Assembly (NCBI GenBank): GCA_030141605.1
Contig: JAQGDQ010000090.1
Span: 558,001-622,000 of the forward strand
Direction of reading: 5' to 3'
Length of the DNA stretch: 64,000 nucleotides
Origin: Tubiluchus corallicola
Lineage: Eukaryota > Animalia > Priapulida
The translations under genes were made by a program, and so were the position numbers. This document shows positions 18,601-41,946 of the stretch, one piece after another. Position 1 is the stretch's first letter; each line of letters begins with the position of its first letter. The notes beneath the pieces are model-generated. The model saw only the letters and a list, made by a program, of their open reading frames with translations. It ran no database searches and was not told the origin of the DNA.

Positions 18601-19270
18601 GCTTATGTGCGGTAACATTTCGACATGTTTTCCTTTATTTGCAATTACTAGACAGTTTAAGCTAAAATGATTTTTAGAGCTTGTATATAGCAACCAATTT
18701 CAAAGCTTCGCCGTTCCACTTGTCCAAAGTCAAGAGAAGCCATTGCGAGTCAAGAGAAGAATGTAAGACGTGAAGCCATCGTAACTTGAAGACGTGTATC
18801 CAATCTTATTCGGCAGCAAATCGTTATACGATTTAACGTAATGGCAGATTTGGTGCCACGTTCAAGTATAACAGCATTAAAATTGATTTGAGTCAACGAA
18901 CAAGCAGACGATCGCATTCTTGGAATAGTTTCCGTTTATAATGCTCAAGATTATGGTACTGCTACATTTAGGAGTACTTGACATGGTAGATAATAGTTGT
19001 TTTAAGGTTTCAAAAAAGGGAAATTGTTGCAGCTTGGAACTTTGATTACATAATAACTTAGCCTTATCAGCAGATTTGTTAAAATTTTGATTACTGAGGT
19101 TTAATTAATAAAGTTTTATAAATAAATGAATAAAATAGATGCTTTAATTTAGCACATCGATTAAATTTAACAACACTAACATTGACAAGTGACAAGTAAC
19201 ATTCAAAAGTTGATTTCAAAAGCTGTTAAGAACTAGTCGTTTCGATTACTGCCTGTGACGAAAATTCCTC

Positions 19271-19276
<6 letters not shown>

Positions 19277-19339
<63 letters not shown>
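19277..19339. repeat. (AG)n microsatellite
   Basis: Pure AG run. Confidence 0.95.
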
Positions 19340-19342
<3 letters not shown>

Positions 19343-19753
19343 ACAATGACCGGTGAGATATAAATAATAAATTCAGTTATTAGGACAAAGTTGCAACAGA
19401 TCAACAATAGTGGTGTCTAGGGCTGAATTCATTGCACATTAATATACATTAAATATTCCACCATGCTAGTTGTGTGACCATGTGTCTGACTTTTCACTGT
19501 GGAAGTGCTATAGTGAGTGCAATGTGTTCAATCAATATAGGTGTGCTAATGGCTTATATGGGAAAGCCTTATGCATGCGTAATGCATGGTAATTATAACA
19601 ACAATGTTAAATCATCCGCGACCCTGATACACATTGGCTTCTGTGTTCACAGCTTTCTCGGTCAGCAGCTGGTAAGACCCGAGATTTGTAGAGAAGCGTT
19701 GCTTAAAATTCTTATCGTCAGTTTTTATCTTGCCAGAATAAAGTAGCAGACAA

Positions 19754-19946
19754 CCGGAATGCGTATGTGTTATGAGGATGCGGAAAGGATAAAATTGGCT
19801 GATTTTGTTTTCAGTGCACCCGTTTATGAGTCATACGTTGTGCGTTATTTTTTCTGCAGCTATTTCTTAATGATTTTTTTATACGCAGCTATTCTGCGGG
19901 TAAATAACGCATAACGCATTCCGGATGTCTGGTAAAAGCCACTTAA
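19754..19946. mobile_element. Second, left-truncated copy of the 15418-15638 MITE
   Basis: Shares the internal blocks GCACCCGTT...TTATTTTTTCTGC(A/G)GCTATTTC...ATACGCAG(C/G)TATTCTGC and the right TIR ATAACGCATTCCGGATGTCTGGTAAAAGCCACTTAA. Confidence 0.85.
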
Positions 19947-22201
19947 CGCAGACAAGCCAGTACAGTGCGCAGTGTTTTAAGCTTCTTAAACGGCTGCTTT
20001 TGGTTGCCTATTGCGATTCAGAGCTTCACAGTAATGGTCCTGTCAAAAATTTGACAATGGGAATAGTTAACAACTGAATAAACAATTGGAAAAACAGGCA
20101 AAGTAAATTATAATGAAAACATTTCAAGCAACATCAAAATTTAGCTATCTCGATTGAAATTACTTCAATATTAATTAACCCAGAGGGTAACGAATATTCT
20201 AGTTGAAGTTATATTGGAGTTGCTATTGCGAGCTAAGTTGGTTCATGAGTGTGACACATGTAAAAAAACGCAATAAAGGTTTGCCAGAGCCACATGGCGA
20301 AGAAAGGACAAGATCAGTTGTACGCAGAGATCTATATTAGATATAGATGTATTAGATCAGATATGTATCTGTATTTGCTGTATCAGCTAATGATGGGCAA
20401 TGCTTGAAATCGATGCGCTTATTTAATACATTTTTAGATTAGCTTTAGCTTATGCTTAAAATATTTGTAACAACAAAGTATAGAATTTTGTTACAATTTG
20501 CAGGCTAACGCTAAAACTATGCTAAGTTGAACGAAATGCATCTGTTTTCATATTACTACTTCGGCCCCGGTGAGGAACCTCATAGTACTCCTGTGATAGC
20601 GCCCCATCTTCGTGCACTATCGGACGTATTACCGTCCAAGCTTGATCTTTTATTTTGAATGCCTGCGCAAGCCAAATAAACACTGTTTTATTTTTATTCT
20701 TAACAATTAGATTAATATTAATATTTTGCGATATTATAGTACTGAGGTTATTTGAACTTAAAATACTTCTTTAAGAGATGAAGAGATGAAGCAGTTAGTT
20801 TTGCATATGTACAGCTGTGAAATCGGCGCAGTTAACCTAGTTATGTTAACGCATACTTGCCTCTCATTGGTTATTTTAAAAATGCATAAACACAGGTGAT
20901 TCCTACAGGTCGTGGAGAAGTGAATTTCTCGATCTAACTAGACAGTTGTGACTTGATTTTTGAGCATATCGTAACGTGTGGCAAACACGTCTAAAGTGTC
21001 TGTCCACACTGCTCAGTTCGAACATCTCTAACGAGATTAACTGAGATGTTTTGATTTATACTATTGTGGAACTTCCTCAAATGATATAAACGGAGTAGAA
21101 ACGGCTTGTTAATATGGTCAATGGAATACGGAACTTAATCTAGACTTGTATTGGCGAGACTCCCAGCAAGTTGGCAGATGGAGTCAAGCAAGCTATATCG
21201 TCGTATCACGAGGAAGCTGTAGCTACCGTGTCAGTGGTGAGGCGAAGAGGTGTCGATCCGTGAGGTGAGCTGCCAGCAGCTGTCGGAACTTGGTGGAGTC
21301 GAATGACGGATGGTATGGTATGAATCGTAACGCATGGAATGGAACGGAATGTTGCAGATACGTTTACAAAGTCTAGTGATGAAACCATCATCATGGAATG
21401 GAAATGGAATAGTGACGCAGTTAATGCCAGGACTGGAACTCCGACATGGTAAACCCGGTACCGGTATGCTTGTAGCCTCATATACACTTGTACAGTTTTG
21501 CTTCAATGATCTGTGCACAGTTTTTTTCATGCATATTATATTTGTAATTAAATAAAGCAATTGAATTTAATGCCCAGTTTATTTAGACTAATAGAGATTG
21601 TCAATTTCTTCTAAATGTTACATCACAACAGTGACGACGTTACACGTTAGGGAAATAACACAGAACCCTTAACACGTGATTTAGGAAGGGTCGTCACAAC
21701 TCCCTTAGATACCTGGCTGGATAATAGGAACATCATTGCAGTTTTTTGAATGTTTGCACTTTTTACAAGCATTAGGTCATGTGAGTTCATTGAATTGGTG
21801 CGGTTTACCCACACGAAGTAAATAGTATCTGCTTAGAGGCTCCCACTGCACTGATCAGTATCAGCGCTACACAAACTGCGTGAAAGCGCCTTTACTCAAC
21901 GTGAGCATATTTTTTACCAATCACCGTGCACCACTTAAGGAACAGCAATATCAATGAAATATGCAACATCAGCGTGTAGCACAACACAATTAATTTTATT
22001 GATGTTAGGCAGAATCACGATTATTATGACTGTAGTAACTCACAACACGAAAATTAAAAGAACCGGGTTAAAAGTGTGATGAAATCAAAACGCAATTATG
22101 GATTTACGATATTGCTTGTAATTTCAGTGAGTTATGAAAATAGTTACTGATGTGTGGGATACTTAATGTCTTGTACGAGTTTGTCTGTATGCCAGTCTCC
22201 A

Positions 22202-22204
22202 CTC

Positions 22205-22256
<52 letters not shown>

Positions 22257-22316
22257 CTCTTTCTCCCTCCCCCCTCTCTCGCTCGCTCTCTTTCTGTCTC
22301 TTTTTCTTTCTCTCTT
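22202..22316. repeat. (CT)n microsatellite and pyrimidine tract
   Basis: Interrupted CT run; it generates the spurious SL/ER ORFs here. Confidence 0.93.
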
Positions 22317-24668
22317 TGTTTATACCTATCAACACGTTTGTGTTTGTGTTCCGGTGCCTGGTGGTTCTTCAAGCATGGCTAACCTATTCCTCTGGTATGT
22401 TTCGATTTATTTGCTTTTCCTTCATTGTTTCACTGTTCACTGACCAACAAACACCTCCCTGCTCTTTCTTAGAGTTTTTGTCCTATTATCTATTTGTACG
22501 TCGTTTTACTCATATAAAATGTTCACTTTAAACACTTAGCCTACACATTGAAATTGAAGGATGCACAATGACATGATGATTACAGGCCTATACAAGACCT
22601 GCTCGCACTGCATATTAATATCCTCTAAGGCATTTTGTCTTTCCGAGCGTTGTATAATTTGCGCATTACACCACTAATGCAAACTTGTTACATATAACAT
22701 TACTATAACAGGCTGACCTATTACCGCGGCGCTGAATATTACATTTCAAGCAGTCTAGCTCTTTGCCTGTGAGATACAAGAATCCCCCACTCAATCAAGT
22801 AGCACGATTACTCGTTAGAGAAATGATCTATGCAAGCCCTAAGAATGTTAGCCAAAAGTTTTCACATGATTTCGTAATAATGACACCACTCATTTATTAG
22901 GGGCTGCGCATTGTTACTCGTGTTTTTGTTTTGTTTGATTGGCTGACTATTTGTTTGTTTACTTGCTTGATCGATTGCTTTATTCGTCCGTTCGTTCATT
23001 TCTTCTTTCATTCGTTTGTTCATTCGTTCGTTCGTTCGTTCGTTCAAACGTTCATTTGCTCGTAATGTTTGGTGGGTTCTTCCCATAACTGCCAAAGAAA
23101 GCTCATCTGACACTTCAAAATTTAGATGACAAACATTTACATACCCTCTGCACAATTTTATGATTATATAGCGCAGCAGAAATTGACTGCGAAGACAGAA
23201 AAATGAGTACTTACTGTAACTTTAACTGACTACTAGGTGCCCCTTGCAAGAGAATGTAAACTTTTATAGAAATTTATAATGATCATTAAAATTAAATTGA
23301 ACATTGAATACATCTGCTAATATCATCACTTAAAACAATTAAAAATGCTTAAGGAACTTCGTGAAATCGCGTGCAGGCTGCCTTTTGAAGTTTTTGTCGA
23401 ATATTAAATACATATTGATTTCACCATTGAACATTTTGTTGTAAAATATAAAAACTTGAACATTTTTCAACTTACTTTTCACCTGCAAACAGGTTGCCAT
23501 CGTACAATGTACAACACTGTTGTTAAGCTGCTGTAGACAGCGTTTCGGGCAATCGTCCACGGATTACAGTTAAATAACGTCACTCGTACTCTGACAGCGG
23601 CACTAGGCATACTTTACCAAGTTTAATAACAATTAACCAATCAAAAATAGTTTAAGCTATTATACCGTGTATCAGATTACTTGTGTCATTCTCATACTAC
23701 AAAATTAAACCTTTCATTTTAGCAAATTGTTTCAGTCAAAAATAAATAAACAAACAAATTTTATTAGGTTCTTAGTATCGAACACAAGGGAACGCATAGG
23801 CAAGTACAGGATGTTTAGGGATTCAGAACATATTTATTATTCGTATATAATGCATATATACACGCCTCAGCTCATGGCAAATTTTGTCTCATTTCTACTT
23901 GCAGGCTCGTGAAACGGCTAATAAAGCGGATTCTATAAGCTTTATTGAGTAGACAGCCTGAGGCTTTGAATAATATTTTGATTGCAGAAATCCACACATA
24001 AGGGGAAATTGATTTCTGAAAATGTTAGTATTTGGTAGATTTTTAGTAAACTTACATAAATAGTGTGACAAAAATCGGGAACGAAACAGTCCTTAGGATC
24101 ATTTGAAGTTCACTCGCTCATTTAACCCTTTGGTGGTTTGGTTTTTTCCTTTCTACAAGAGAGCTTGACTGTTCCCTAATTTAAATGATTTGTGACATTT
24201 CCCTTTCATTATATTGGTATCTTTCTGCTAACGATTGGTTGGTATGCACATCGTTAGTTTACTAAACGTAGTATTAGGTGCACCCCTTCAAGCTGAAAAC
24301 TTGTTCTTAGAGTTGACTAGAGAGTATAGGTGATATGACTTGAAATTTTATATTTTTAAACAGGAAAACATTTAACAGTATACATTTTATGAAGTACAAG
24401 AAGGCTGATATCATTGGTTCAATTAGTCACAATAGTCGAACAGTCAAGTAACTTAACCACTTCATACAAACTTTGTTACAACTGATAATGTAATAAACGT
24501 CCGATATTGTAACACAAAAAAATCAACGCACAATGTAATAAAAATTAGCACATGAAATAATAACTAACAGATAATGTGATAAAAAACTAACGTATAAACG
24601 CGTAATGCATTAATCCGAAGTTTAACGCGTATTGTAACACCACAGAAACTCGTAATAATACTAATGCT

Positions 24669-24760
24669 AATACTACTACCACTACCACTACCACTACCAC
24701 TACCACTACCACCACTACCACCAGTACCACCAGTACCACCAGTACTACCAGTACTACCAG

Positions 24761-24827
<67 letters not shown>
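24669..24827. repeat. Compound trinucleotide microsatellite (ACC/ACT/AGT, then ACT, then AAT)
   Basis: Graded array of ACCACT and ACCAGT units followed by (ACT)n and (AAT)n. Confidence 0.92.
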
Positions 24828-24830
<3 letters not shown>

Positions 24831-27344
24831 AATTCTAACTGATAGACTTAAATGAATAACATAGTTGAATTAATGTTACCTGTTACCAGTGACGTAGTGC
24901 TGTGGGAATAGGTGAGATTAACAGGTTTCCTTACTCTGTTGGAAGAGGGATTGATGTTCCTCGTTATTTCAAGTTAATTTTAACTGACATTTTTCATATA
25001 GTTTATCCATTCCATGCGTAGACCTACAATAATATTCTAGTGGAAACGTATCTGAATACAGTAGTAATATACAAACGTCGAACTTAATGTAGCTTTACGT
25101 CAAAAATATTAGAACGAATCATAATTTGGACAATTTGTCTGTTCGACTCTTATATTTTACTAGTAAATAATCGCTTCCGGTTCAGCCAATGCTCATGCAG
25201 CAACTTCTGACTTGCGACTAGAGGGAGCTGCTTATATTATTCATTTATAAAGCATACAATTTTATACAGATAATAATACAGTTACACAAACACAAAATAT
25301 ACCTACATACAAAGGCTCATAATTTGACCTAATCCTCTATTTGCTGGGCATATTGACGGTAATTGGAGAGAGACTTATTTCATCCTTTATAAACAATAAA
25401 TACCTAACGCGCATTATCTTCGTATGTCAGAAAAATAAAAATTATTGTACTATATTTAAAGAAAATTGTACCAGGTAACATTAATTTTACACGTGATTAC
25501 ATTATCGGTTAATTTTTTGGTATAACAATATCGGGAGTTTATTACATTATAAGCTGTAACAAGCTCTTTTTGTTATAAGCGGTTAAATGGCTGGAAAATT
25601 GAGGATATGTAGACAGAAGAATCTGCTTTTCAGCAGTGACATGAAACCTAATCGAAATCGAAAACAATTGTCAACTTAATGAAGACGAAAACGCTCGAAT
25701 GGCTCTTCGAACATGGTTCTTAATTATCATTTGAACTTGTGTGCCAGATTCCTATAATTACGTTATTAACGTACGCGTTCATTATGGGAGTCGCAGCTTA
25801 ATGATAGGCCTAATTACAGACACAGCTATATTATAATCAATACTCCATTAATAGGTCAAGGCATTAGTTTTGGTTAGTGGCATTAATTTGTGGTCGGACG
25901 TCAATGCGTTTCATACAAGAAAGTGAAATCAACACACCTTACACTAAGAATAAAGCCTGCAAATTTATAAAAAAAAAAAATTGTGTTAAATTTTTGAGTG
26001 CTCTCACAAGGTAAGTTATTATAGTTAGATTGAAAATGCAGCCCAAGAATACTGATTCTTATTACTAATTTGCCAGTGACAGCTGTCGATATTCTCGATA
26101 CTCTCCATGAAGCAAGCGAGATTGTAGTTACCAGATAAACAACATTCTGGTTCAAAACTTCTAAGGTAAGAGACCTGGGGAAAGCTGTATTTAATATATA
26201 CGTTATATATCTGTTTAAACTTTATTTATATATTGTGGTCTTAAAAGCTTCATCAGGCAAATGACCTAGAAAGTAGCAAAAGAATGATCTATAATATGCA
26301 AAACAGTAGTAAAATATTTATTCCGAGCAAACTGTCGGGGCTTAAACATTAACGGATAGTATCCTAAGAGCATCTTCTATAGAAGCAAATGAACTTAGAC
26401 AAAAATTAGACAGAACCAGATAAACCGTTTGATTTCGCAGCTTATCAAGTACCGGCGTTAAACTAACAAGCTGAGGTGCCGTCCCAGTTGTAGTTGTAGT
26501 ACTCTATGTAAGCAGCCACATGTTCTCAACTCAAGAAACGGGAAAAGATGTGCATAATTTTCTTATAATTAAAGATGCAAAATTAACAATATATTGCGAT
26601 CTACGTCAACTCCTTCTTGTCATCATCATGTAGGCCTATCCATTACGCTTATTGTGAACTTTGGTTATGCAAATTTCTAAAATGAAAGAAATCTGCGCTG
26701 ATAACAGTTAATCACAACAATAATCTGGCAAAAACTAGACACATTCTATGCCAGTAACATATCAGCAAAAAAGTATCAGCTCTCATTTGGTAGAATTTAC
26801 CATTTTTTCAATGTATTTTATGATGTGTAGAAATTCAAGAACCCCCGTTCATGTCAGTACTTTGACTAGTTTGATAATAAGATCCAATACTGAATATCAA
26901 TCTTTAATAACAAGCTTAATTACAAAAATTTTAATCAGCAGTATCAAAATTTATATTAGATTTTAATATTCATTTCTTAGTTTTCAATAAAGAACAGCAT
27001 TCTTTGAAATTCTACAGAAACTACACATCATGAAATGCACTGAAAATATGATTGGGATTGTAGTAATATGCACTAAATAAAACACTGAATGACTTTACGG
27101 AGCTCTTTCTTTAGTGCTTTTTGTGTGTGTTACGAAAAAACTTTTATCGATGTACTCTAAAATAAGAGTGGTGTTCTTTCTTAAGTCTTCTGTCATCATA
27201 GTTCTCAGCATATTAAATCCAGGCTTATCTGTAACTTCCTAATTTGGAATTTGCAAAGATTCCACAAGAAAACAACAAATTGGGCGAAAATGATGAAGGA
27301 GATACAAATGAAAGCACGTGGTGAAAATGGAATGCATGTGATGC

Positions 27345-27790
27345 AAAGCTGGAGGTAGTAGCGATGCTGGTGAGACACCATTAGTGGCGGAGATAGCGGC
27401 GATGGTAGCGGTGGTGGTAGAGGTAGAGGTAGTGGTGGTGTCGTTGGCAGTCATTGAAGTCTACATGAATGCGAATACCGTATTATACCGTGTTTTGATG
27501 GTGGCAATAGTGTTCACCAGGCTTCTGGATTATCAGTGTGACAACGAGCCAGCATGACGTTTCTATGGTGTTGTTGTTATCATTGCCTCCGTTGTGGTTG
27601 ACACTCCTCCCACAGTTGTTGTGGTTGTGGCTGTTACTACTCTGCTATTGCTCTTATTGCTGTGCTTGCTGATGTTAGCGACACTGCCGTTGTTGTTAGT
27701 AAAAGTGTGGTAGTGGTGGTGGTGGCAGTGGTGAGGTGGGGGCTGCTGTTGCTCATAGTGACGGTGAAGATTATAACGAAGATGATAGGA
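27345..27790. repeat. Degenerate GGT/GTT/GCT trinucleotide low-complexity region
   Basis: Decayed triplet repeats with stop codons in the apparent reading frames. Confidence 0.7.
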
Positions 27791-28809
27791 ACAATGATAA
27801 GCAGTATAATTAACAACTTTTGATTTGGCTTATAATTTTTAGCATTAGGTGTTTATCTGTCATTTTTGCCATAGTTTTAAGGCGTCTGCCATTCCTAAAG
27901 TTTTCCCAAAGTGTTCCCTCTTTTAACTGAGAATCTGTGATGTAATAGCTTTGTAATGAAGTAATAGCTTTGTAATGAAGATATAGCTTTGTAGTTTAAA
28001 AGATGCACTCTTCTAGACTACTAATGAAGCGCCTACGTGCTTAGTGCACTGTGACATTTCTGAAATACTTCAAGTTTTTATGAGATATAAATCTGTTTTT
28101 TTCCAGCACTTATTAATCATCCGCCAGATGCACAAACCGTGCTCGTCACAGATGCTTCTCGTAATCCGTTTGTAATAATTTATTCAATCAATCACCGCGG
28201 TTTACTGAAGTCGTCGTTTATTACATATTACATGACGGAGAGCAATTGCGGGAAAATAATGCCATTATACGTCAAAGTTTTCTCTGCTTTGAAACCTGCA
28301 AACGACGTGGCCGTCTTAAGAAAAATTGCTTTATAGTTAACCGGGCACTTTGCATGGAGTGGGGATTTCCATGTCCTTTTGTATTTCTGACATTTTAGAT
28401 TGAGCGTATTCGGTATCAGCAGCATATGCGTACGTTTCTAAGCCTACTTATCGTGCACTTAAATGGCAAGAATAATAGGAAGAAATTCGAACTTCGTTGC
28501 TCTTAAAGTATTTCAAAAAACCTTTTCTTGCACGAAGTCCTCACAGCGACTCTATCAATGTCGTCACTACAGACGTGGCCAATCGATAAATCCACTCTGG
28601 TTTATTAATTTTGCCTAAAATACCATTACGTAGTACACTTAAGCCTTCAGAAAATCGCATTATCCCAAAGCTTATATAACTCGCCTGAATTATATAGTCA
28701 TAAGCGCGTAAGTCATCTAACAACCACAAGGGCTCAGGAAAAACTTGGAGATAAAATACTATAATTGTGTATTATAGTAACCACAGGAACCACAGGAATA
28801 TCAACATTA

Positions 28810-29050
28810 ACTGCAACGAAAGCAACAACAAAATGTCAACAACAATAAAACGACAACGACCAATGGCAACAAGCAACAATGACACCGACAGCGAAAGCGG
28901 CAGCGGCTACAGTAACAATACAGTACAGTGACAACTAAAACTGTAACAGCAATAGCAGCAACAGCAACAGCCACGACGACAACAACAACACAACAGCAGC
29001 AGTTGTAGCAGCAGCAGCAGTAGTAGCAGCAACAACAACAACAACAACAA
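28810..29050. repeat. Degenerate (CAA/CAG)n microsatellite
   Basis: Triplet repeats; they give the spurious poly-Cys ORF on the minus strand. Confidence 0.85.
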
Positions 29051-32000
29051 AATGTCCGAGTCATTGTAAACGCATCATGTTGCAGAATTATCGCCATGAA
29101 TACTGACTCCGCAATTTAATAAAAGAGGACTAGGACTTTTAGATTAAAGACCCCCTGCCGCTTTCACCAGATTCTAACTGAACTCGACGTTTCTGATATT
29201 ACGCCTTTTAGTGCTAACTTTAAGAGACCTCTGCTGCTGTTGTATATATTAGTAATGCTATACAGACTGGCTCGTGCGTCGATTAAGAGCAGCTGCTGCT
29301 TCTGAGATTTTTGTTAATAATTAATAAAGATGTAAACAGTAGAGCAGGTAAGTTATATATATAGCGAGTGCCGTATTCATCTGCAGTTTGCTGTGAGACT
29401 TAACATTAAATGTTGCGTGAAAATTTGAAACATCTTCTACAATCGAATAAACTCGTAGCTGGTTGTAAAACCTATAATGTTTTCTGAATCTCCTGAAAAT
29501 CTCTTGTGAACAGAAGGTTATCTTATGCGTGAGTTAGATGCAATTTCATTACACCTGGGAGCCTCTGCAACATCGTCTGAACAATTTACTGTAGCTTTGA
29601 ATATTTTTATCCTGTCTTCATCTTATGACGCTCGTTAGTCAGTAAAAGTTTAAAACTTTTTTAAAAATTGACGAATGATGACGAAGGTCACGATACTGAT
29701 GACGATGATGGTAATGGTGATGACACGAGGACGACGACAACGTCGCTGATGATGATTGCGATGATAGTGAGGTAGTACTACTCGTGGTGTTGTCGATGAT
29801 GATGACAGTTATATTCATTATAATTAAACTAGGTGAAATTATATTCAGCTTTCTACATGCGTAATTCGAAAAAACTAACTAGCCTACAACTTAAGTTCTG
29901 TTATAATTTATTTATTTCGTGCTTCTATTATTATAACCTCACTAACCTTTTAGAAAATTACCCATAATTCATGCGAGTTAGAGCTCCGTTCGTAATTCAG
30001 AGACCGGATGTATTTACTAAGTCGGGATATTCACTAAGTCCGTGCGAGTCACAATTCGTCTTTGAAGCTTTTGTAGTTCAAATTATTATATGTCAAAGTT
30101 CATGTAAAAATAGCCGAGAATCAGACAGACAGGCAAGGAGATCTTTTGCGAAAATGTATAAAATAGATCCAGTTAATGTAAAAACTGTAAACACATCTAT
30201 AAAACACAAACACAGAAGAGCAAACTATAAAATTGTTAGCTCAATTCTAGTACATTTGTCAAATGATTGGCATTCAAAAGCAAGACTGAGTTTGCGAGGT
30301 ATTTCATCAGATGAAAATTCCTGGAAGCAGTTTGATGTAATAGTTGTATATATAGATCAGTACGCCATAACTATGTAATATAAGTAAGTTTCACAACTTG
30401 TTATAATTCTTGGCAAATCTTGTGATGGGCATTACCACAAGAAATTTTCAATCAGCCTTTCCATTATGTAGGATGTAGTATTGATGTGATAAAAAGAGCT
30501 TGTTTATTACTCTATTACGTGTAAGCTTTGGAGCACCAACAGCCAAATTAGTCGTAAATGTACTAATATCAAGAGATAATAACTGTGGTTAATGATGTTC
30601 CATGAGCTAAAGGATGGGGCACTGACGAAAAGATGCTTGTGTAGTTTCTTCATAATTTAGCTGAATTCCAATTGATGATGAATGAGAATGCTCAGAGAAA
30701 ATCAAAACGAGTAAACCATCTATGTAATTTTGAAAAAATCTCCACTTGGGATGAAATTATTAGTATTTCTACAGCTTTTCAAATCATTTTACGTTAACTT
30801 GAAACATTACTCATGACTCAACGTAATTTCGCAACTATACGGCTGTGACATTTTCTTCAGAATGACGTGGAACACATTTACCGAAGAAATTTCATTTTCC
30901 CCTCAAGCGAAAGTGCGGCAATCTATTTGTTGCGGTCCATTTGGTTGTCAATGGCCTATTTTCCAAACGTTCAATTAAGCGTTAGGCCTTCTTACAGAGA
31001 GTTCTCGCACGAGAGAAGACTGTGAAATGCACAAAAGAAGATAACATGAAGGTGGTACAGAGGTCTGAGAGTTGTTATCTGCAGACTTAGCCTTTGCCAG
31101 CAAAAATCGCTACTTCTAATGATGTTCAGGTTTAATTTCCGTTTGGATTCTGCGCTTCCTTAATTACTACGTCCTATTCTTACACAAACTAATCCAAACT
31201 TTGAATGATGACACTAAGGACGCTTGGAGATGTGGAATGAATACAACTGAATTGAATGACTACTTTTAGAACAGTCAAGATGTGTAAGATTCAAGACATG
31301 GCTGTTGTCACCAGTTTCAAGCTTCATAAAGTCACAACAAAAAAACTTGTTTACAAGAACATAAAATTCCGATGACAGATCGCACGCAGAAGAACCTCTA
31401 AAATAACATCGCTCCGGTTTTCTAGAATTTTTATTATAATTCCTCAAATTTTTTCAGTAAAATTTACCCGAAATGTGAACCAGTGTGAACTTCCTAAAAT
31501 TAAGCGTCCTGTAATCATGCAATATCCAATAATCATGCAGTCGGGTTACTTTTATCTAACTTGAGCAATACTAAACTTGAGTAAGTTAATCAATGAGTGT
31601 TCAAACTGACGTTACTCAAACTACATTGCACAAATTTTCGAGAATTACTCAGTTTGAAAGTTTTGCTTCAGTCTCTAGTTACTGGTTTTGTGTAAGTAAC
31701 AATATATTACAGAAGACAATTATAATGATCTACTGTTTAAAATATTTTTTTTCTAACTCAGACTTTAATACTAATTGAAATTGAGTTACAATAAATTTCA
31801 TAGTTGCACGCTGGTAAAAGGGAATACATGATGTCATGAGATTACGCATTAGCGTAGAGATAAACTTGAAATTTGAATTATTGTAAACTTAAATTTGCCA
31901 AGTTTTTGTCTTTTTTCTCAATGTCAGACAACAGTTCAATATACCTCTATTTTCCAAGTACATAAACATGGGAAGTTTTGACATTAGAAAATTTTTACTC

Positions 32001-32127
32001 AAAGAGACATCGTCATTGTCTGCTAATGTTTAAATTTCTAGGGTAATCTTTAATTTTAAGAAACCGGTATAGGAAAACACAAGGATATTTCTGCAAACGT
32101 TACCTCGTTTTCACCTAAAATAATGTA

Positions 32128-32600
32128 TTTTTTATTTATTTTATTTTTTATTGACATTTATACGCATATTAAAATAGTATGAAAGAAAGTAATTAGCAGG
32201 AGCAAGCGCGCTTACGCTGATCACATGAAACATAAAATTTATAAAAACAATACCCTGAAATTGAATACATATAATTAAAAGGCTTCTTATTCATTCAAAT
32301 GAATATTCATACTTTTACATTTTATAGAATAATATGGTATGGAGAAATCAATTAGGCCTAATGATTTTACATGATTGGGAGAAAGTCGCAATAAGGCAGT
32401 AACGTTAACTAATCGATTGCTAAAAACTGATAAATTAGTAGCATCAACTACCTGAGAATCCAGAACATTCCAAATGTTTTCAACTCTGTCAGCAAATGAG
32501 AAAAATTGTTTGATCTCGGAGAAGGCGTAAACAGTTTAAAGTTGTGATCACGCAATTAATTGGTTGAAACACGCTGGAAAAAATCATCAATATTTAACTT
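32128..32600 (-). mobile_element. 3' fragment of a CR1-clade LINE (ORF2 C-terminus, 3'UTR and A-rich tail), decayed
   Basis: Minus strand translates KLNIDDFFQRVSTN*LRDHNFKLF...(frameshift)...QFFSFADRVENIWNVLDSQVVDATNLSVFSNRLVN. This matches the CR1 ORF2 end 'RGHxxKL...FFSxRVVxxWNxLPxxVVxAxSxxxFKxRLD'. An AATAAA-type tail lies at about 32128-32152. Confidence 0.8.
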
Positions 32601-32971
32601 CTGAATTTTAAGTATAAATCAAAAAGACGCAATGCCTTTGAAAAAATATTGTTCTGTTTTACTATAACGGCTTCTTAAATTTAAAGATTGGCTTAGAAAC
32701 TGAAGCAAATGAAGCAACATATTTCAGAAATTTGGTACAGTTCACAGAAATTTTACGACAAAGTGCACATGGTTTCATCCTCTGGCTTCACTTACTCGAG
32801 AAGCCATATAGACTCCTGCTTTGCACATAAATTCGTATTTATTTGGCCGTAAAACTTACTAATATAATTCTTATCAATAGTTATTATCGGAAGCACGTTT
32901 TTCTCTTGCTCGAGTAACGAATTAATTCGTTCTCAACGGGCTTCGCTGATTTTAAGTTAAATCATGATAAT

Positions 32972-33076
32972 AATATTAAAATAGTATGAAAGAAAGGAAT
33001 TAGCAGGCCCAAGCGCACTTTCGCTGAACACATAAAACAAAATCTATAAAAGCAATACCCTAAAATTGAACACATC
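32972..33076 (-). mobile_element. Second copy of the CR1 3'UTR segment
   Basis: Direct similarity to 32167-32270 (ATATTAAAATAGTATGAAAGAAAG...TAGCAGG...AAGCGC...CGCTGA...CAATACCCT...AATTGAA). Confidence 0.7.
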
Positions 33077-33660
33077 TCATTACTGAAGTTATTATGAAGC
33101 AAGTCCATTCGAAAATGTAGGTAATAATTATTAATAAGTAATTATACAAGCATTAAAAATTAAGATTCAATATAAGACACAAAATTCACGAATTCATAGT
33201 CTAATGAACGGAGCTAATCACAATACCTACGTAAAAAATTAGTTTTGACGTATTTCTGAAGAAACTGACACAAAAGCGGTTTCCTGGTAACTTTATTTAG
33301 CAAACACTAAGTTTAGAAAGCTTTTTTAAAACAAATCCAGTTACGCACAAAAAAACCCATAGGTCTTAAGGCTAAAACTGAAATTGATCAGGACATCACT
33401 CATTAAGCTAACGATGCGTAACTGCAGTCTTTATGTCACAGACTTTGCTAGTAATAACAAGCCTTATCATTGTCCGCTGCATGTCAGTAATTGAAACGAA
33501 CTCTTGTCAACATCTTCTGATTCTTTGCGGGAAATTCCAAGAAACTTTATTTATTGTGCAGGAGCTGGGGGATTTTAGCTGTAATTTAAAAACTACAAAA
33601 ACAGTAGGAAAGTAACCTTCTCTTATAAAGTTGTCAAATTTTACGACTCATTCATAGAAG

Positions 33661-33780
33661 GTTTTGGCGCAGTTTTTACAGGCGGATGCCCTTCCTGACC
33701 CTAACCCCCTCCCTATTTATCCGGGCTTGGGACCGGCACTGAGTTGGGCTGGCTTGCTACCCCCCCCCGTTGGCTAGGTT
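33661..33780 (-). mobile_element. RTE-clade retrotransposon-like 5' leader or RTE-derived SINE fragment carrying the twister ribozyme
   Basis: GC-rich 120-bp island in AT-rich intron. The ribozyme is followed by GTCAGGAAGGGCATCCGCCTGTAAAAACTGCGCCAAA, a motif I recognise from animal RTE-type 5' regions. No ORF follows. Confidence 0.6.
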
Positions 33781-33781
33781 T
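33701..33781 (-). ncRNA. Twister self-cleaving ribozyme (type P1 core with a P3 insertion; 5' strand of P1 missing)
   Basis: Minus strand reads A^AA-CCUA-GCC-AA[P3 insert]AG-UGCCGGUCCCAAGCCCGGAUAAA-UAGG-GAGGG-GGUUAG. The 23-nt core (33716-33738) is identical to the rice twister core as I recall it. P2 is CCUA/UAGG (rice has CACU/AGUG), and GAGGG with the catalytic G is conserved. Confidence 0.85.
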
Positions 33782-35044
33782 AAATCTACATAGATAACCA
33801 TCAATAATTACATACAAAGTCTCATTTATATTATATTAACTTGGAAATTTAATTAAGTGCCAAAGAGGGCAGCTAGCCATGACGTTAGAACTGAGTAAAA
33901 TCCAACACACAGCAGAAGCTGTACCTTGCACTTGTTGCGTGTATTTGTGAGAGTGAAAACAAAAACATTGCATTCGGTGCATTGCTGTGTGACAGTGACA
34001 ATGTAACCCAAAAACGCGATAAATTTTAAGTTCACAATTTCAATTCTCAGATTTTTTATGGGGTTTTTCATTTCCCTACGTCATAAAGAAATACGTTATG
34101 CTGATCAGAGCACATATTTTATGCGCAACATGTACCGAAAATTTGGAGCTGCTATATTCATCTAAGAGTGTATGGCGAGACCGTGAAACTGAAAAATAAA
34201 ACAATATCTCCCATTTCATTTTAAATTTTAGAAAATTAAGCTGCGGTCTAAAATTGAGTACTGCTAAAATCTACATTGTACACTGTGCACAGATAGACAA
34301 AGATGTATTGACATATGTGACATGTAATTATACTAAATGTGTTATTTCTTTGCAGATAAACGTACTAATCCATTATGTGACGTCTAACCCATGTAAATAT
34401 CATTCTAATAATTATTGTCCATCGTGATGTTATAATTCGTTGATGATTGTTTTTATTTTATCGCGATCTAAGAACCAATATGCCGATCTATAGCAACACT
34501 AAACCCTAAATTTATTCTTTTCTGGCTGATCTATTAAACTTTCAACACTTTCACTTTTAAAAAACAAATAAAAATACTTTAAAGTTTAATCTCTTATTCT
34601 ATTACAAAATCAAAATACAAGAATCGACAAAGTTGCCTAAAACAGTTGCCAAAATTGATTACCCACGGTTCATACTGCATAGCACTGACTATTCTTCAGC
34701 CGATCTGACTCAAAGTTTGCTTCACAGACTATCATGGACGATACGAGTATTGGGTGTTTTTCATGTTTAATGTCTCTGGCAATAAGAAGTTTTCTGTAAT
34801 AGATAAGCTTGACAGTTGATGCTTGTCCAAAGTAACAAATGCGCACTATAATTATGATGCTGGGTAATTATTCATTGTGTCAGTAAGCAAACTGTTTCAA
34901 GATTAGCTCAATGAAAATGACAGTAACAAGCGCAACATTGCCGTTCTAATTTAGCAATAAACTTGAAGGTCAAAGCAGTGCAGAACTGTTTAGTTTCAAG
35001 TAAACTGTTTTGTACTCTCCATTTCTCGTCCTTCCTGTCGCTGC

Positions 35045-35210
<166 letters not shown>

Positions 35211-35994
35211 TTTTCAGAAACTGCTGAAATTGACAAACCTCCAAGTTACACTGAGTTTGGCTCTTCTATGACAGTGCGCATGTATTTTCATAACAGTGAC
35301 AATAGCTGACTTGACATCTAAGTTTTTGTCTCGCTCTGCTAAAAGCGTTACCTAGCGGTTGTAATTGTTTCTAAATGGACCTAAAAGTGTGTGCTAATTT
35401 CCCGTTGTACTACTGTCTCTTTTAATCAGTTAAATGATAATGTCTACCAATCCACTTTCTTGCACACACAGTCGAACTCACAACACACAGTCGAACTTGC
35501 ACACACTTTTATTCAACTTGCAACAACAGATACTAATTTCGGCTCATTTCCAAAAAAAACATCGAAACAATGTGCTAAGCAATTGTAACTATACTGGTTT
35601 ATATCACTTATTATAAGTTATTATTATAACTCATAAAGCACACATTACTATAGAAAAATTATCAATGGCGTGGTGCAAAAAGTTTTGCCCATTAGATTTT
35701 TAATGTACTTTTAATGTAATAGTGTCATTTATGTAAATATTTTAACTACTTTTTCTGTTTAATTTTTGTGAGTTGTAGGATTATGTTTTATAATTAGTTT
35801 TTTAATAATTTTGTTTTTATGGCTTTAGACTTTGTATGCCAGCTGAAATAAAGAACGAAATAAATAATAAGTAAAAAGTAGACTGAGCAAAAACGTATAC
35901 AACCTATACAATACATTCATTAAAATGCTAATTCACGCTAACATAACAATAATTCGTTAAAACTTTGTAAAATAGATGTTTTTTCTGTTTTTTC

Positions 35995-37270
35995 CTTATA
36001 ACAGTTTATTGCTTATAAGTACTTACCACAATAAGAAATATAAGTTCTCAGTACAAAATCAGAAATTATTATCAATGGTGAAGTACAAGATAAACGAATG
36101 ACACATTAAAAAATCACACAAATTATGATAAACTCGCCAGAAATCTAAAAGATCACTTGAAATTATCGTAGATATCACAAAATCGCACGAAACATTAATA
36201 AAAATTACATTATAACATAGCAGAGAGTATTGGCACAAAGTGACAGATAATTACATAGACAGATTATTCCTATAATTTAATAGAGAGTTACGCAATACGC
36301 ATAGCAACTGGAAACAAATTCCATTCTTTTGGGCCTGCAACGGAAAACAATCGATCTGCAAAAGTTCCGCATCCCTATATATTTAAAGGGATTTGTGGAT
36401 TTGTGCCGCAGGCTGTCACTTTCAGGTAAAGCAATCAATGTAATTACAGGTAAAACAAATCTAAAGCTTTCAGACTGTAACGTCACAACTATATAATAAT
36501 TGTACACTTTGACATTAAAAAATTTGATTGAACAGGTAAATTAACAAACAGTTAACTACGGGTGATTTTTTTTAACTGGCGATTGTGTTTGTTATGACAC
36601 TGTGACGGAAGGTGCGTGATGACACTGTGACAGCTTTACGTAATTTATCCTAAGCTACTGTTTTGGTTATACGGTACTTTTCATGGAGGCACCTTTTCAT
36701 GGAGACACAGTTTTCAAAAAGAGAAACTGATATTTTGTCCTGCATAAATACTGCCTAAAAGACAATAGGTTAGAAGATATGATTGATGAACCATATTTTG
36801 GAGATGATAACCAACAATTTAAATTTAACTCTACGTAGTCTTGAAAGCCAAGGCAGACTTTTCATAGCTACAGAGGATGAAATTTTATAATTTGATAGTA
36901 CACTATAATTTTTGTGATTTGATTTTAAACACATTGCACATTATCAATGCAGCAACCAGGTAAACCATAAAATCGAGATGTGAAATTACAGTGCTCGAAC
37001 AACAGTTTTAGCTGCGCTGATACATAAATTTTTTCTAATTTTCCTAATTAAAAATAAATTATATTTGGCTGCTTTGCATCTATCCTGTACATGAGTTCCA
37101 AGAAAGACCATTGTCCAAATAAACTTCCTAAGGTTTTAACACATTCTGATAGTATAATTGATGTATCAGCTACATAAATTGCATCGAATCCAATAAGGCT
37201 AGCAATGATAGGCGTACTTATAAATGGATTTCTCATGATGCCGAACAATTAAAAGTTGTTTGTAGAAAAC
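35995..37270 (-). mobile_element. Decayed, 5'-truncated L2-clade LINE (RT C-terminal half to 3' end), interrupted by an insertion at about 36450-36700
   Basis: Frameshifted minus-strand pieces occur in the correct order: SECVKTLG-x-LDNGLSWN-HVQDRCKAA (about 37150-37070), AAKTVVRAL-ISHLD-YGLPGCCIDNVQCV (about 37015-36930), MKSLPWLSRLRRVKFKLLVII (about 36865-36805) and VSVAGPKEWNLFPVAMR (about 36350-36297). These match the L2 ORF2 motifs KxLGVxLDxxLSW, AKTLVHALVISRLDY, LHWLPVxxRIxFK and GPxxWNxLP. Confidence 0.82.
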
Positions 37271-37516
37271 GTACAGTCGAATTTAGATATGTACATAGAT
37301 GTTTAATATATAGAATAGAAAATAGGGGTACGTGCATCAAAAATAGGTGTATGTAGAGATGTATAAAACAGAATATAAATAGAGAATAGAAATGTATATA
37401 ATAGAATACAACAGAATGTATAGACAGTGCCGGATTATGACCTTTTGAGACCCCTAGGTTGCACTCTATATTATATATAGGGTAATGCAGCCCCGGATAT
37501 AGCATATAAATGCGTG

Positions 37517-37519
<3 letters not shown>

Positions 37520-37561
<42 letters not shown>
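37520..37561. repeat. (AC)n microsatellite
   Basis: About 21 AC units. Confidence 0.93.
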
Positions 37562-37565
<4 letters not shown>

Positions 37566-39189
37566 TTATAGGATCTGTAAAATATACGTACAGATCGGAA
37601 TTGCTTACAATGAGCTAAAGAACATAATGTCAGCGAGTTTATTCCCAAGCTTTCGGCTCGGCTCAGATTATTAGGTTAATTTCAATGCAACCTGCGTTGC
37701 TAAAGCCGTATCATTAAACTAATGGACAAGTTGATTAATCTCGCGTGCAATCACTGTCTATAAAGTTTCTTAATAAGAACTCATTAAGACAATTAACTGC
37801 CACGATAACACACCAAGTAAACGGCAAAATTAATGCGATTAATTAACACATCGCCCTGCGTTTGTATTTTTTGATTAGCTGCAGAAACCAATGTAGAATA
37901 ACCCAACCATTCTTTACAGATTTGTTTCCTGCCACTACACATGGCTTCACAAATGTTTTAGGTGACATTAATTATTGTAGACATACCGTATGGATTTTAC
38001 AGTACAGAAATACTGATATGCCTAAAAGGTGCGACCATTGATCGGCGAGCCTGAAATCAATGGTAAGACGCCGCACACCTTGATTACAAACAAGTTTCTG
38101 CTTGCTATAAATTCGCAGCATGCTTTGTTCTGAATAGACTTTTGATTTTCTTTCTATAACGATTAGCTAAATTCTAAAAAAAATCAAGACTAAGCGTCGC
38201 CCTTTTAGTAAAACTTAAGAATAAGATCTACAACAAATTCTAATAATACAATAGTTTGTGTCAAGCAAAAGATTTGGCAGTATAATACAACGGTTTGTTT
38301 GCAACAGTGATAGTAATATAACATAAATTACAAAAACAAAACGCGGCAGATTTCTTTGCTGTAAGATATAAGACTTTCTGCAAAGGAAATTTTGCAGTTG
38401 CAAGATCAAACGGAAAGGGTTAAACTAACTTGTTTTCGTTGTTTGCTGTTCGTGATTTCACAATCGAGCCTCAATCTAATTATTGATCATATCTCTCCTA
38501 AAATGTCTACTGCTCAAGTGTTGTTAGAATGATTAAGAGTTAACAATTTGAGTCACGAATGACAAGTACAAATTATTGTTCGTGTTTCAGACAAATAATA
38601 GGTCGTTGTTCAAAGTTTTTTTTCGAATTATGAATAAGGAAGAACAAATAACAAGCTGAATCGAATATAATTACCCCCCTCCCCCACAAACATATTCGTT
38701 TACTTATAAGGTACAGAGTTCAAATGCTGGTTTGATTTTAAAGTTTTCCCTAATCGGCTTACCTATTTTACAGAAAACTACAGACTTCTTTCAAAAGTTA
38801 AAAGTAAAATGCACAATTTAATTAGCTCAGACATCATCAAAAGAAATCATCGTCTCACCGTGATTGTAAGTTCGTCTGATGAAGTTCTTAACGAAGAGGT
38901 CCCTGATTGCTGACCCAAATCCACGGGATTTTTGAGGATTAACAACCTAGGTTGAGAATGTCGCGTTGCTGATAACAGAACTTAATTACTTTTATCTACC
39001 CGCTTGACTTTATTTAATTATTTGCGCCGTCTAACGAGCTATTGTAGCCTAAATAAACATGTTTAAAAAACGCAACATTTATTTATTGAATTTCAGTGCG
39101 ATTACAGAATAATGGTAGAATAAATTTAAAATAAATAAGTGTATTATTACGCTCTTTTTGACGAAAAATAAATAAAAATAGAAATGCGA

Positions 39190-39232
<43 letters not shown>

Positions 39233-39300
39233 CAGAGAGAGAGCGAGAGTGAGAGGAAGAAATGCGAAGGTTGTAGGCCTGTATATATATATATCCAAGG

Positions 39301-39634
39301 TAAAAATAATAGCATATTTTAATCGTATTATATATGTCGTTTTTCTACTACTGGATAGATAGTTTCTTCGGGCAGACAAGTTACTAAAGCTAAGCATCGG
39401 ATGCTCAGGTTGCTCAAACTGAGAAACGAATTTTTAGCTTGGACACCTTACTGCTCAAACTGAATATTCAATGCCGGACTTGAGTAACTTGTTTCCCTAA
39501 AACGAACAACTGATGCTAAAATTTAATATTTTCTTGCTCAACCTGAGAATTTTTATTGCTCTGCCCGAAGAAACTATCTATCCAGTAGTAGAAAAACGAC
39601 ATATATAATTCGATTAAAATATGCTATTATTTTA
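39301..39634. mobile_element. Young foldback MITE with about 74-bp near-perfect terminal inverted repeats
   Basis: 39303-39376 is the reverse complement of 39560-39633 with one mismatch. The spacer of about 183 bp has repeated TGCTCAA(A/C)CTGA motifs. Confidence 0.85.
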
Positions 39635-40989
39635 GAAAAATGGAAAAAATGTTGCAATAATCATTGCATGACCCCCGGACCATATGACAATTTTTGCAAC
39701 AATTATTTTTTGAGGTGTATATGTCATTATTTTCTTTGCAATTATTTTCAACGATGATTGTAACGTTGTAACAATAAGCCCTAGATTGTTAGCTTTATCA
39801 TTGTCTCGAGCTAAGTTGCAGTTTACCTAATCAGTAGGGTAGTATGTCTGTGCTGACGTAAAAGAATCCTTAGGTCAACGTTGCTGGATTATCCGCAGCA
39901 TACGTATGTAAAACAACGCATGAAGATTACTATAATAAGAAAAGTGAAATTATAGTTAGCCGAACATCAACTCTGAATGTCACAATTAGCGCTTACTGTG
40001 ACGTCACGTGAGAAACGATATTACGCCAACAATTATGCCAGAATAGACATTCTCAGTAATAAGTTAAGTTCGAGACTTCAAGTTAAGTATATTGTCATAT
40101 AAAATATACAAAAGTAAAACAAAATTGTTATTACTTACAAGCACAATAAAAATGAAGCATGATATGTGAAACAAAAATGTTAAAAAAATCGAGTCTATAG
40201 CTTAGATATTTTTATGTCATGGGGTGTTGAAGTCCACTGACTTATTCAACTTTTTATGTTGCAATGAGTAGGCATACATATTTATCTTATGTTAGTTGAC
40301 CATTAAAAATAGTAAAATCCGACTTAATTAAAAAGCATCATATACAAGTACTAATATAAAACTAAAAATGTTAATGCAGAAAATATGACAATTACAATAC
40401 AATCTAAAATCAAAATTTAATAGAAAATAAGTAAAACATTTTCATTTTCATAAGTGTGTGGCATATTTCAGTTTCAACTTTGCAGCCTATAATTGAGCTA
40501 ACAATTCTTTTGATGGACGCGCTATCACCCCCTCTAATACGTTACACTGTCATCAACAAAATTTTTAATTACAAAGTCTGAAAGCTCTTTGTTTTCTCAC
40601 AAAGCACTGGAAAGTTTGGTATCCATCTAGTCTTCTCTGAAGCTTTGTCTAGAACTTGGTCATTTATTTTTAATTGTTTTCAATTTAAACTTCTTCAAAC
40701 TGCCAACGTTGATTGGTTTCCCATTTCAAAAACAGTTGGTTGGTTTCGAAGCAAGACTGAATAATTGACCGAGCTATTTTATGGTAGTCTGTTACGCCAA
40801 CTGTCTGTTTATGACGCTGTTAACAACGAATTTATGTTCGCGGGCTTAATTCTGTTTAAATCCGTTTCACTGGCAGTTAGGTAACTCTTCTGCAGCAAGT
40901 GGAAGTGATAAAATTGCCAAGACATTCTTTTGCTGGAAACTAGAGCTCTCATGAAATGCCTTGATCTTAATTTTTTTCAGTGACTATAT

Positions 40990-41175
40990 TCACTCATTCA
41001 TTCATTCATTCATTTACTCATTTATTCACTCATTTATTCATTCATTCATTTTGTCCTTTATTCACCAATTTGTTTATTTATAATTTATTCAATTAATTAC
41101 TCACTTGTTTATTTATTTAACCGTTTATTCAATTATTTATCCAATCACTCACTCATTCGCCCATTCACTCACTCA
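40990..41175. repeat. Degenerate (TCAT/TTAT/TCAC)n tetranucleotide repeat
   Basis: Visible 4-nt periodicity. Confidence 0.8.
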
Positions 41176-41736
41176 TATAATGTTAACTACAGTTGAGTAC
41201 AAAATAGAATAGAACGCCTGTAGAACTAGTTCTACCACTACTGTAATATCAGTATTGTGAAATATCGCATTATTATGTGACGTCGTTATGACGTCAGTGG
41301 CCGTATAAAATTATAGTTAGATATGTAATTGAATATGAAATACGCCTTTCGCTTATGAACCAACATATGCGTAATGAGTGTTTTCCGTCCTCGAGAACGT
41401 GTATGGGTACAAAGATATTTTGCAACATAACAGCTTTAATTTCCTCAGCAGCACATTCTTCGTTGTGTTTCTTTTGTTCGGTACTTTTCTTCATATTTAT
41501 TTTACGTTAAATTGCTTCACTTATTTCATCTTGAATACAATAAAACAAGAACCCTTTCAATAACATCGATACTTTATTTCATTTTATTTTATTTTGCACT
41601 TCCACTAGACACCGAACGTTATTAGCTACATACCGTTTTGTAGATCACTTAAAATAAACAATGCATAATGTCTATACTTTGCGTCAAAATCAAAATTTTG
41701 TTCTTTACTACAGGTAACTAAAAGACAATTTGGAAG

Positions 41737-41895
41737 AAGTTTGCAATTCCTCACACAATTTAAATACCCTAGCCATAACTTCAACCCTAGCCCTAACACT
41801 AACTCTAACCCCAACCCAAACCTAAATCATAATTCTAACACTAATCCTAGTTCGCTTCACGAACTAATTAATTGCGTGGGGGGAATTGTAAACTT
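41737..41895. mobile_element. Small non-autonomous element: about 24-bp inverted repeats flanking degenerate (AACCCT)n hexamers and a short hairpin
   Basis: AAGTTTGCAATTCCTCACACAATT (41737-41760) pairs with AATTGCGTGGGGGAATTGTAAACTT (41870-41895). Interior has CCTAAC-like hexamers and the hairpin TAGTTCG-CTTCA-CGAACTA. Confidence 0.6.
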
Positions 41896-41946
41896 TTGCG
41901 GACATTCTTCTCAAGTCATAATTATCAAGTTTTGTGTATGTTTTAG

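What the first reader, a model, noticed from the sequence alone, without database searches (positions are those of the whole stretch)
33701..33781. Twister self-cleaving ribozyme in the 30-kb RGK intron (minus strand)
Seen: the minus strand reads ...GAUUU-A^AA-CCUA-GCC-AA-CGGGGGGGGUAGCAAGCCAGCCCAACUC-AG-UGCCGGUCCCAAGCCCGGAUAAA-UAGG-GAGGG-GGUUAG. Known: this is the twister type-P1 layout (L1 NAA, P2, GC of T2, P4 enclosing UCCCAAGC, P2', GAGGG with the general-base G and the T1 partner). The 23-nt core at 33716-33738 equals the crystallised rice twister core as I recall it. P2 shows covariation (CCUA/UAGG against CACU/AGUG), which argues against a chance match. A G-rich/C-rich insert sits at the optional P3 position. 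Inference: this is a catalytic RNA module that gene annotation would miss. It is antisense to the RGK pre-mRNA, so it would cut only minus-strand transcripts.
Basis: partly seen in the sequence, partly recalled or inferred. Interest (0 to 1): 0.85.

Follow-up and report, generated by a model that had tools for sequence, protein, structure and literature searches.

The report
Retrotransposon stump carrying a twister ribozyme
The motif has all the core features of a self-cutting "twister" RNA, but it is the 137-base front end of a very common repeat, likely a shortened RTE-type jumping gene whose RNA the ribozyme likely trimmed before insertion, so it is probably an ordinary transposon leftover facing away from its host gene rather than a regulator of it.

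Summary
The twister is real. P2, P4, both pseudoknots and the catalytic A and G are intact at the stated places. A model built without the window aligns 33785-33703 at 55.3 bits, E about 9e-12; Rfam gives only 35.2 bits, below its cut-off.

It is not a stand-alone module. Read contigs pile up over 33644-33780 at thousands of times flank depth. Other copies share sequence up to the cleavage-site AA and then diverge. The ribozyme plus the next 35 bases match the 5' ends of endonuclease/reverse-transcriptase LINEs. Other copies run on into a stretch that reads like the C-terminal motif of that protein, so the family is likely an internally deleted, non-autonomous RTE element, of which this copy keeps only the 5' tip.

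The missing P1 strand is expected after self-cleavage and reinsertion, as published for Perere-3 (PMC8501958). The copy lies antisense in the 30,064-nt RGK intron and would not cut that pre-mRNA. Cleavage, expression and clade were not tested. New member of a known kind; low interest.

The parts
33644..33780 (-). 137-nt copy of a high-copy repeat: 5' tip of a likely non-autonomous RTE-type retroelement, cut short at its 3' side
   Evidence: depth step and loose ends; homology to LINE 5' ends L005-L008
33779..33781 (-). L1 5' strand A^AA; predicted cleavage between 33781 and 33780, which is also the family's 5' boundary; A33780 is the predicted general acid
   Evidence: boundary from loose ends; role from PMC5408937
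33775..33778 (-). P2 5' strand, pairs with 33712-33715 (4 of 4 Watson-Crick)
33773..33774 (-). T2 pseudoknot GC, pairs with 33725-33726
33738..33772 (-). 35-nt insert at the P3 position; homologous to the P3 of L005; 5' arm differs from other copies of the family and pairs less well
   Evidence: loose ends behind 33757 and 33764
33721..33736 (-). P4 and L4, canonical
33707..33711 (-). L1 3' strand GAGGG: predicted general base G33711 and T1 partner of 33728-33731
   Evidence: numbering from PMC5113685 and PMC5408937
33700..33706 (-). orphan P1 3' strand; can instead form a 7-bp rival helix with 33772-33778
33782..33787 (-). single-copy target-site DNA standing where the P1 5' strand would be
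   Evidence: depth at flank level from bin 33787 on; pairs
33661..33699 (-). conserved retroelement 5' UTR segment behind the ribozyme, with a small 3-bp hairpin whose letters never vary in 4 sequences
33644..33657 (-). approximate junction to the ORF-tail-derived segment that other copies carry on with
   Evidence: loose ends before 33644 and motif test; exact junction inferred
11883..41946 (+). predicted intron of the RGK-family GTPase gene that hosts the copy in antisense

Best explanation
The motif is a type-P1 twister fold that forms the 5' end of a 137-nt copy of a high-copy repeat, likely a non-autonomous RTE-type retroelement whose RNA was likely trimmed by this ribozyme before it was reverse-transcribed into the RGK intron. 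Steps: (1, inferred) a source copy is transcribed by read-through from host DNA; (2, inferred from the fold and from Perere-3 data) the twister cuts at N^AA, G33711 as base and A33780 as acid, freeing an RNA that starts with AA; (3, inferred) an RTE endonuclease/reverse transcriptase copies it into a new site; (4, shown) the copy therefore begins at that AA, with unrelated single-copy DNA in place of the P1 5' strand; (5, shown for the family by loose ends, reading inferred) the family joins this 5' UTR straight to the last 145 or so codons of the ORF; (6, shown) this copy stops about 12 nt into that tail, cause unknown; (7, shown) it lies antisense, so the RGK pre-mRNA carries the inert complement. 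I put in-vitro cleavage of this copy at about 0.6 and any role in RGK control below 0.05.
For: Summed contig depth 162-176 in the flanks against up to 822,560 inside for X1, about 19 against 44,497 for X2; X4, a second study, shows the same peak, with edges in bins 33643-51 and 33778-86 (1259, 525 and 202 contigs laid). 6 of the 9 listed loose-end rows at 33754-33780 put the end of shared sequence at the AA 33780-79, with U, U, A, G, U, G next to it; 3 rows are uninformative. Both metagenome hits and all 3 genome-contig matches of a twister-plus-downstream pattern lie at the head of LINE sequence: L005 has one 1019-aa ORF with endonuclease and RT, 81% identical to the window over 96 nt including P3; L006 joins the same 5' end to the ORF's C-terminal part; L007 carries ORF fragments and L008 is its near-duplicate. 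Loose ends before 33644 agree in all 4 runs (19, 11, 8, 4 contigs; agreement 0.88-0.99) and read VRLKGKVHK; that peptide's best match lies 140-159 aa from the C-terminus in 97 of 120 L005 homologues, and 0 of 60 shuffled peptides scored as high on 40 of the 120. Liu 2021 shows Perere-3 copies starting at the twister AA with flank-derived P1 and active A*AA sites. McKinley 2024 found P1 imperfections, N-1 = A and long P3 tolerated.
Against: No target-site duplication: only two 4-nt words are shared between the flanks, and a copy lacking its 3' end is not the normal product of target-primed reverse transcription, so a later deletion or odd insertion has to be assumed. Summed depth is not a copy number, and overlapping short contigs inflate it. 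Only 24 of 199 and 18 of 99 loose-end rows were shown. The peptide reading rests on a 30-nt consensus and a frame chosen by eye. No full-length family member or partner LINE from this genome was seen (no genome held). The RTE label comes from architecture and papers, with no tree against labelled references; none of the 120 listed homologue names says RTE. Rfam score is below the cut-off. Without pseudoknots, ViennaRNA gives P4 only 0.04-0.34 and P2 from 0.00 to 0.84 depending on construct ends; z-scores are positive. 33674-33729 is not covered by any listed flank-anchored contig, and the one over 33730-33840 has 2 gap letters.
Confidence: 0.87

Rival explanations
1. The copy is the 5' stump of an autonomous full-length RTE LINE, not of an internally deleted family.
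For: L005 shows the same 5' end on a complete ORF; a non-autonomous family needs such a partner.
Against: The shared continuation jumps to a motif about 145 aa from the C-terminus, and the ATGs at the end of the window copy run into stops when read on into that continuation (for one frame; the others read by hand).
Confidence: 0.07
2. The ribozyme has been co-opted at this locus to process an antisense or nested transcript and so influences RGK expression.
For: All core residues are intact; it sits in a 30-kb intron.
Against: It is one of very many copies, and the core is intact across the family, so intactness needs no local selection; P3 is degraded relative to sister copies; antisense orientation.
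Confidence: 0.03
3. It belongs to an LTR-type retrozyme or mini-LTR element with a twister in each terminal repeat, or to a tandem twister satellite.
For: Earlier unreviewed notes describe such elements in other animal genomes.
Against: One core only in 64 kb; nothing multi-copy upstream of 33786; no tandem array there; homology points to endonuclease/RT LINEs.
Confidence: 0.02
4. Chance match or assembly artefact.
For: Below the Rfam cut-off; homopolymer runs may be mis-sized.
Against: 0 of 100 shuffles; E about 9e-12 with an independent model; a short-read contig bridges the 5' junction with 51 nt inside and no substitutions, another reaches 30 nt across the 3' junction, one short of the tool's bridging rule.
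Confidence: 0.01

Closest known systems
T-variant twisters at the 5' end of Perere-3 (RTE clade) of Schistosoma mansoni (Liu et al. 2021, PMC8501958; read: abstract, introduction, sections 17, 19, 21, 22 and part 1 of 2 of section 18)
   Same: Type-P1 twister with P3; element begins at the cleavage-site AA; P1 5' strand supplied by flanking DNA; three As at the site as in their 3A class; related 5' ends head single-ORF endonuclease/RT elements.
   Different: Other host; P2 CCUA/UAGG instead of CUCC/GGAG; no ORF behind this copy; family appears internally deleted; no target-site duplication found; no cleavage data.
Truncated twisters at the 5' end of RTE-superfamily retrotransposons (de la Pena et al. 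2020, PMC7761336; read: 3 passages; cited there as in preparation)
   Same: States the general rule that this locus follows.
   Different: No sequences or data were seen in the passages read.
Bipartite non-autonomous RTE elements such as Bov-A, RTESINE1/2, WALLSI3 (Kojima 2018, PMC5786205; read: 12 passages)
   Same: 5' end of the LINE joined to its 3' part; usually keep the LINE's true 5' end, which the paper links to 5' ribozymes.
   Different: The ribozymes it cites are HDV-like; here it is a twister. The 3' part here starts inside the ORF; the far 3' end was not seen.
Type-P1 twister ribozyme, Rfam RF03160; Osa-1-4 (PMC5408937, PMC5113685, passages; PMC11662667 abstract and sections 32, 33, 35)
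   Same: P2, P4, L4, T1, T2 and catalytic A and G all present.
   Different: P1 nearly absent, N-1 is A, 35-nt P3 insert, score below the gathering cut-off.

Membership tests
Twister type-P1 | Covariance-model match | tested here: inconclusive
   Rfam 35.2 bits, E 5e-6, below 67.2; own model without the window 55.3 bits over the full layout
Twister type-P1 | Stems P2 and P4 | tested here: met
   4 of 4 and 3 of 3 pairs; all 4 P2 pairs change on both sides among 7 sequences (6 of the 7 were found by the core motif, so invariance of the core is circular)
Twister type-P1 | Pseudoknots T1 and T2 | tested here: met
   complementarity; 3D folding not tested
Twister type-P1 | Catalytic A+1, A+2 and general-base G | tested here: met
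   A33780, A33779, G33711
Twister type-P1 | Stem P1 | tested here: not met
   2 U.G, 1 U.U, 1 A-U; P1 is reported dispensable, so it files as a T-variant rather than a canonical member
Twister type-P1 | Site-specific self-cleavage | not testable with these tools
   bench assay needed
RTE-type non-LTR retroelement | Interspersed high-copy repeat with sharp 5' end | tested here: met
   single in the window
RTE-type non-LTR retroelement | 5' end homologous to single-ORF endonuclease/RT LINEs | tested here: met
RTE-type non-LTR retroelement | RT phylogeny places the partner in the RTE clade | not tested
   no labelled references at hand; names do not give a clade
RTE-type non-LTR retroelement | Target-site duplication and 3' short-repeat tail | tested here: not met
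   none at this copy, which lacks its 3' part
Bipartite non-autonomous RTE | 5' UTR joined directly to the 3' part of the LINE | tested here: inconclusive
   supported by a 30-nt shared continuation matching the ORF's C-terminal motif; no whole copy seen

The most novel reading that the evidence does not exclude
This animal carries a SINE-like, internally deleted RTE family with hundreds to thousands of twister-bearing copies and a built-in safety catch: the orphan P1 3' strand repeats the P2 3' strand, so a copy that did not gain a P1 partner from its insertion site folds into a 7-bp rival helix and stays off. Insertion site would then decide which copies can self-cleave and spread, and sense-oriented intronic copies would be purged.
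Probability: 0.1. Interest if true: 0.55.

Novelty: new member of a known kind. Interest (0 to 1): 0.22.

Why it matters
As a single locus it matters little: it is one of many transposon copies and points away from the gene. It extends the Perere-3 pattern (element start = twister cut site) to another animal and, probably, to a non-autonomous RTE derivative. The family would be a natural library for asking how flanking DNA sets ribozyme activity and whether self-cleaving copies are excluded from the sense strand of introns. It also shows that Rfam at its cut-off misses such copies.

Tried and rejected
Whole genome: none held, so no copy count, no full-length member, no orientation test. Rfam at gathering level: 0 hits. 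Expression: no RNA holder listed; this is no evidence either way. Empty-site allele: no joint skipping the copy in 4 runs from 2 samples; X4 covers the flanks only in part. ORF remnants in the window: tblastn best E 1.1, C-terminal profile from 60 of the 120 homologues best E 1, 14-nt continuation motif 0 matches. Target-site duplication: a 9-nt near-match at 33790/33597 was rejected because 33598-33643 is single-copy. Viral contigs: 4 loci with the core, none with the downstream segment; downstream motif 0 hits. Protein Atlas unavailable. Plain folding does not recover the twister (z +1.32, +0.85), as expected without pseudoknots. Consensus fold of the downstream segment on 4 sequences: only the invariant 3-bp hairpin is credible. 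Earlier scan notes: none by sequence, place or the longer word list. Paper searches listed no paper whose title or abstract start describes this family, a twister on a bipartite RTE, or intronic orientation bias of ribozyme-bearing elements; listings only, and the library lacks most subscription journals. No supplements were opened; those of PMC8501958 and PMC11662667 list thousands of twisters and may include this family.

Full report
Observation. The minus strand at 33781-33701 reads as quoted. P2 (4 of 4) and P4 (3 of 3) pair; T2, T1, the two extra P4 pairs, A33780, A33779 and G33711 are in place (my T1/T2 registers were mis-indexed and corrected there). These match the positions named essential or catalytic for Osa-1-4 in PMC5113685 and PMC5408937 (passages). 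The 22-nt core is unique in the window and absent from 100 of 100 shuffles. Rfam finds twister-P1 at 35.2 bits, E 5e-6, under the cut-off of 67.2 and with the 5' half misaligned. A model from six other twisters aligns the whole layout at 55.3 bits. Among 7 sequences all 4 P2 pairs change on both sides. P1 is nearly absent and N-1 is A.

Host context. The window is animal DNA of about 35% GC; the best named relative of its GPCR is from a horseshoe crab at only 37% identity, so 'probably an arthropod' is as far as this goes. Exons at about 10985-11882, 41947-42044, 43900-44100 and 45690-45954 encode an RGK-family GTPase. The predicted intron 11883-41946 holds the ribozyme in antisense.

It is a repeat. 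No genome is held, so I laid contigs of 4 runs from 2 samples (X1-X3 may be the window's own source). Summed depth rises from 162-176 to as much as 822,560 in X1, from about 19 to 44,497 in X2, and peaks at 71,694 in X4, with edges in bins 33643-51 and 33778-86. This is no copy count; 1259 contigs in X1 suggest hundreds to thousands of copies. Of 9 listed loose-end rows at 33754-33780, 6 place the end of shared sequence at the AA 33780-79, followed by differing letters; 3 are uninformative; most rows were not shown (175 and 81). The family's 5' end is therefore the predicted 3' cleavage product.

Which repeat. A pattern of core plus downstream motif found 2 metagenome loci and 3 matches on 2 genome contigs. 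L005 matches the window at 81% over 96 nt, P3 included, and continues into one 1019-aa ORF with endonuclease and RT domains, related to non-LTR proteins. L006 joins the same 5' end to the ORF's C-terminal part. L007 has ORF fragments behind two such 5' ends, and L008 nearly duplicates part of it. The four phage-contig loci share the core only. At 33644 contigs of all 4 runs go on with one shared sequence, which I read by hand as VRLKGKVHK. Its best match is 140-159 aa from the C-terminus in 97 of 120 L005 homologues; a strict form occurs in 14 of 120; on 40 of the 120 the mean score was 25.8 against 17.7 +/- 1.2, reached by 0 of 60 shuffles (frame chosen after the fact). This points to an internally deleted, bipartite family. 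The window copy stops about 12 nt into the tail; no ORF remnant or target-site duplication is nearby.

Mechanism. Inferred: read-through transcript, self-cleavage at N^AA, copying by a partner LINE's enzyme. Shown: the copy begins at that AA and single-copy DNA replaces the P1 5' strand. Liu 2021 reports this cycle for Perere-3 and cleavage of A*AA sites. McKinley 2024 found about 94% of tested twisters active, P1 imperfections harmless, N-1 = A only slightly lower (0.72 against 0.76) and long P3 tolerated. Against activity here: the P3 5' arm is degraded, and a 7-bp rival helix (33778-72 with 33706-00) has probability 0.13-0.99 in constructs ending at 33701-33660 or 33614 and about 0.1 when ending at 33644, with pseudoknots unscored. 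I estimate 0.6 for in-vitro cleavage. In antisense it would not touch the RGK pre-mRNA.

Comparison and verdict. It works like a Perere-3 T-variant. It meets every tested twister feature except P1 and the Rfam cut-off. Its family looks like the bipartite non-autonomous RTEs of Kojima 2018, with a twister where that paper cites HDV-like ribozymes; de la Pena 2020 already states that truncated twisters mark RTE 5' ends. The RTE label is inferred from architecture and these papers, not from a tree. My searches listed nothing on this family, but supplements were not opened. New member of a known kind; interest 0.22.

Noticed in passing
window 33707 (loose ends): Contigs in all four runs share the twister core but carry a different sequence behind GAGGG, so the genome likely holds a second twister-bearing retroelement family.
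   Followed up: no
window 33705-33706 and 33760-33768: About half of family depth lacks 2 letters at 33705, and the flank-anchored X2 contig has 2 gap letters in 33730-33840; the G runs in the window may be mis-sized or allelic.
   Followed up: partly
L007, L008: Short contigs in two marine bacterial isolate assemblies carry near-identical twister-headed LINE fragments (98.9% over 647 nt); probably animal DNA contaminating the assemblies.
   Followed up: partly
L007 (reverse strand, about 805-860): The 5' tip of the element is repeated in short tandem pieces upstream of the ribozyme, and its P2 shows a two-sided change against the window family.
   Followed up: no
L002 2660-3035, 5324-5395; L003 1300-1365, 2471-2540, 3469-3539; L004 2956-3017: Phage contigs with several ribozymes each: two twisters plus a twister-sister, two twisters plus a weak HDV-like hit, and a P5-type twister.
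   Followed up: no
window 33614-33663: Imperfect inverted repeat with 8-bp perfect ends spanning the 3' break of the copy; 121 of 63,920 window positions start such a repeat. It may relate to the truncation or be chance.
   Followed up: partly
window 33749-33757 and L005 P3: The P3 loop keeps a GCAAGCCA motif in both, resembling the L4 loop and the twister-sister loop.
   Followed up: no
window 33034-33082 and 34291-34575; 32166-32244 with 32973-33051: Two further, lower-copy repeats flank the locus and a 79-nt pair is 85% alike.
   Followed up: no
window 15248-15458, 15442-15611 with 19756-19926: 39-nt minisatellite (5.4 copies) next to a segment repeated 4.3 kb away; possibly a non-autonomous DNA element.
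   Followed up: no
window 1109-2302 (-), 51872-52561 (+), 58197-58595 (+): Intronless Tre1/moody-like GPCR and pieces of a threonine-rich, probably membrane-anchored protein without Pfam hits.
   Followed up: partly
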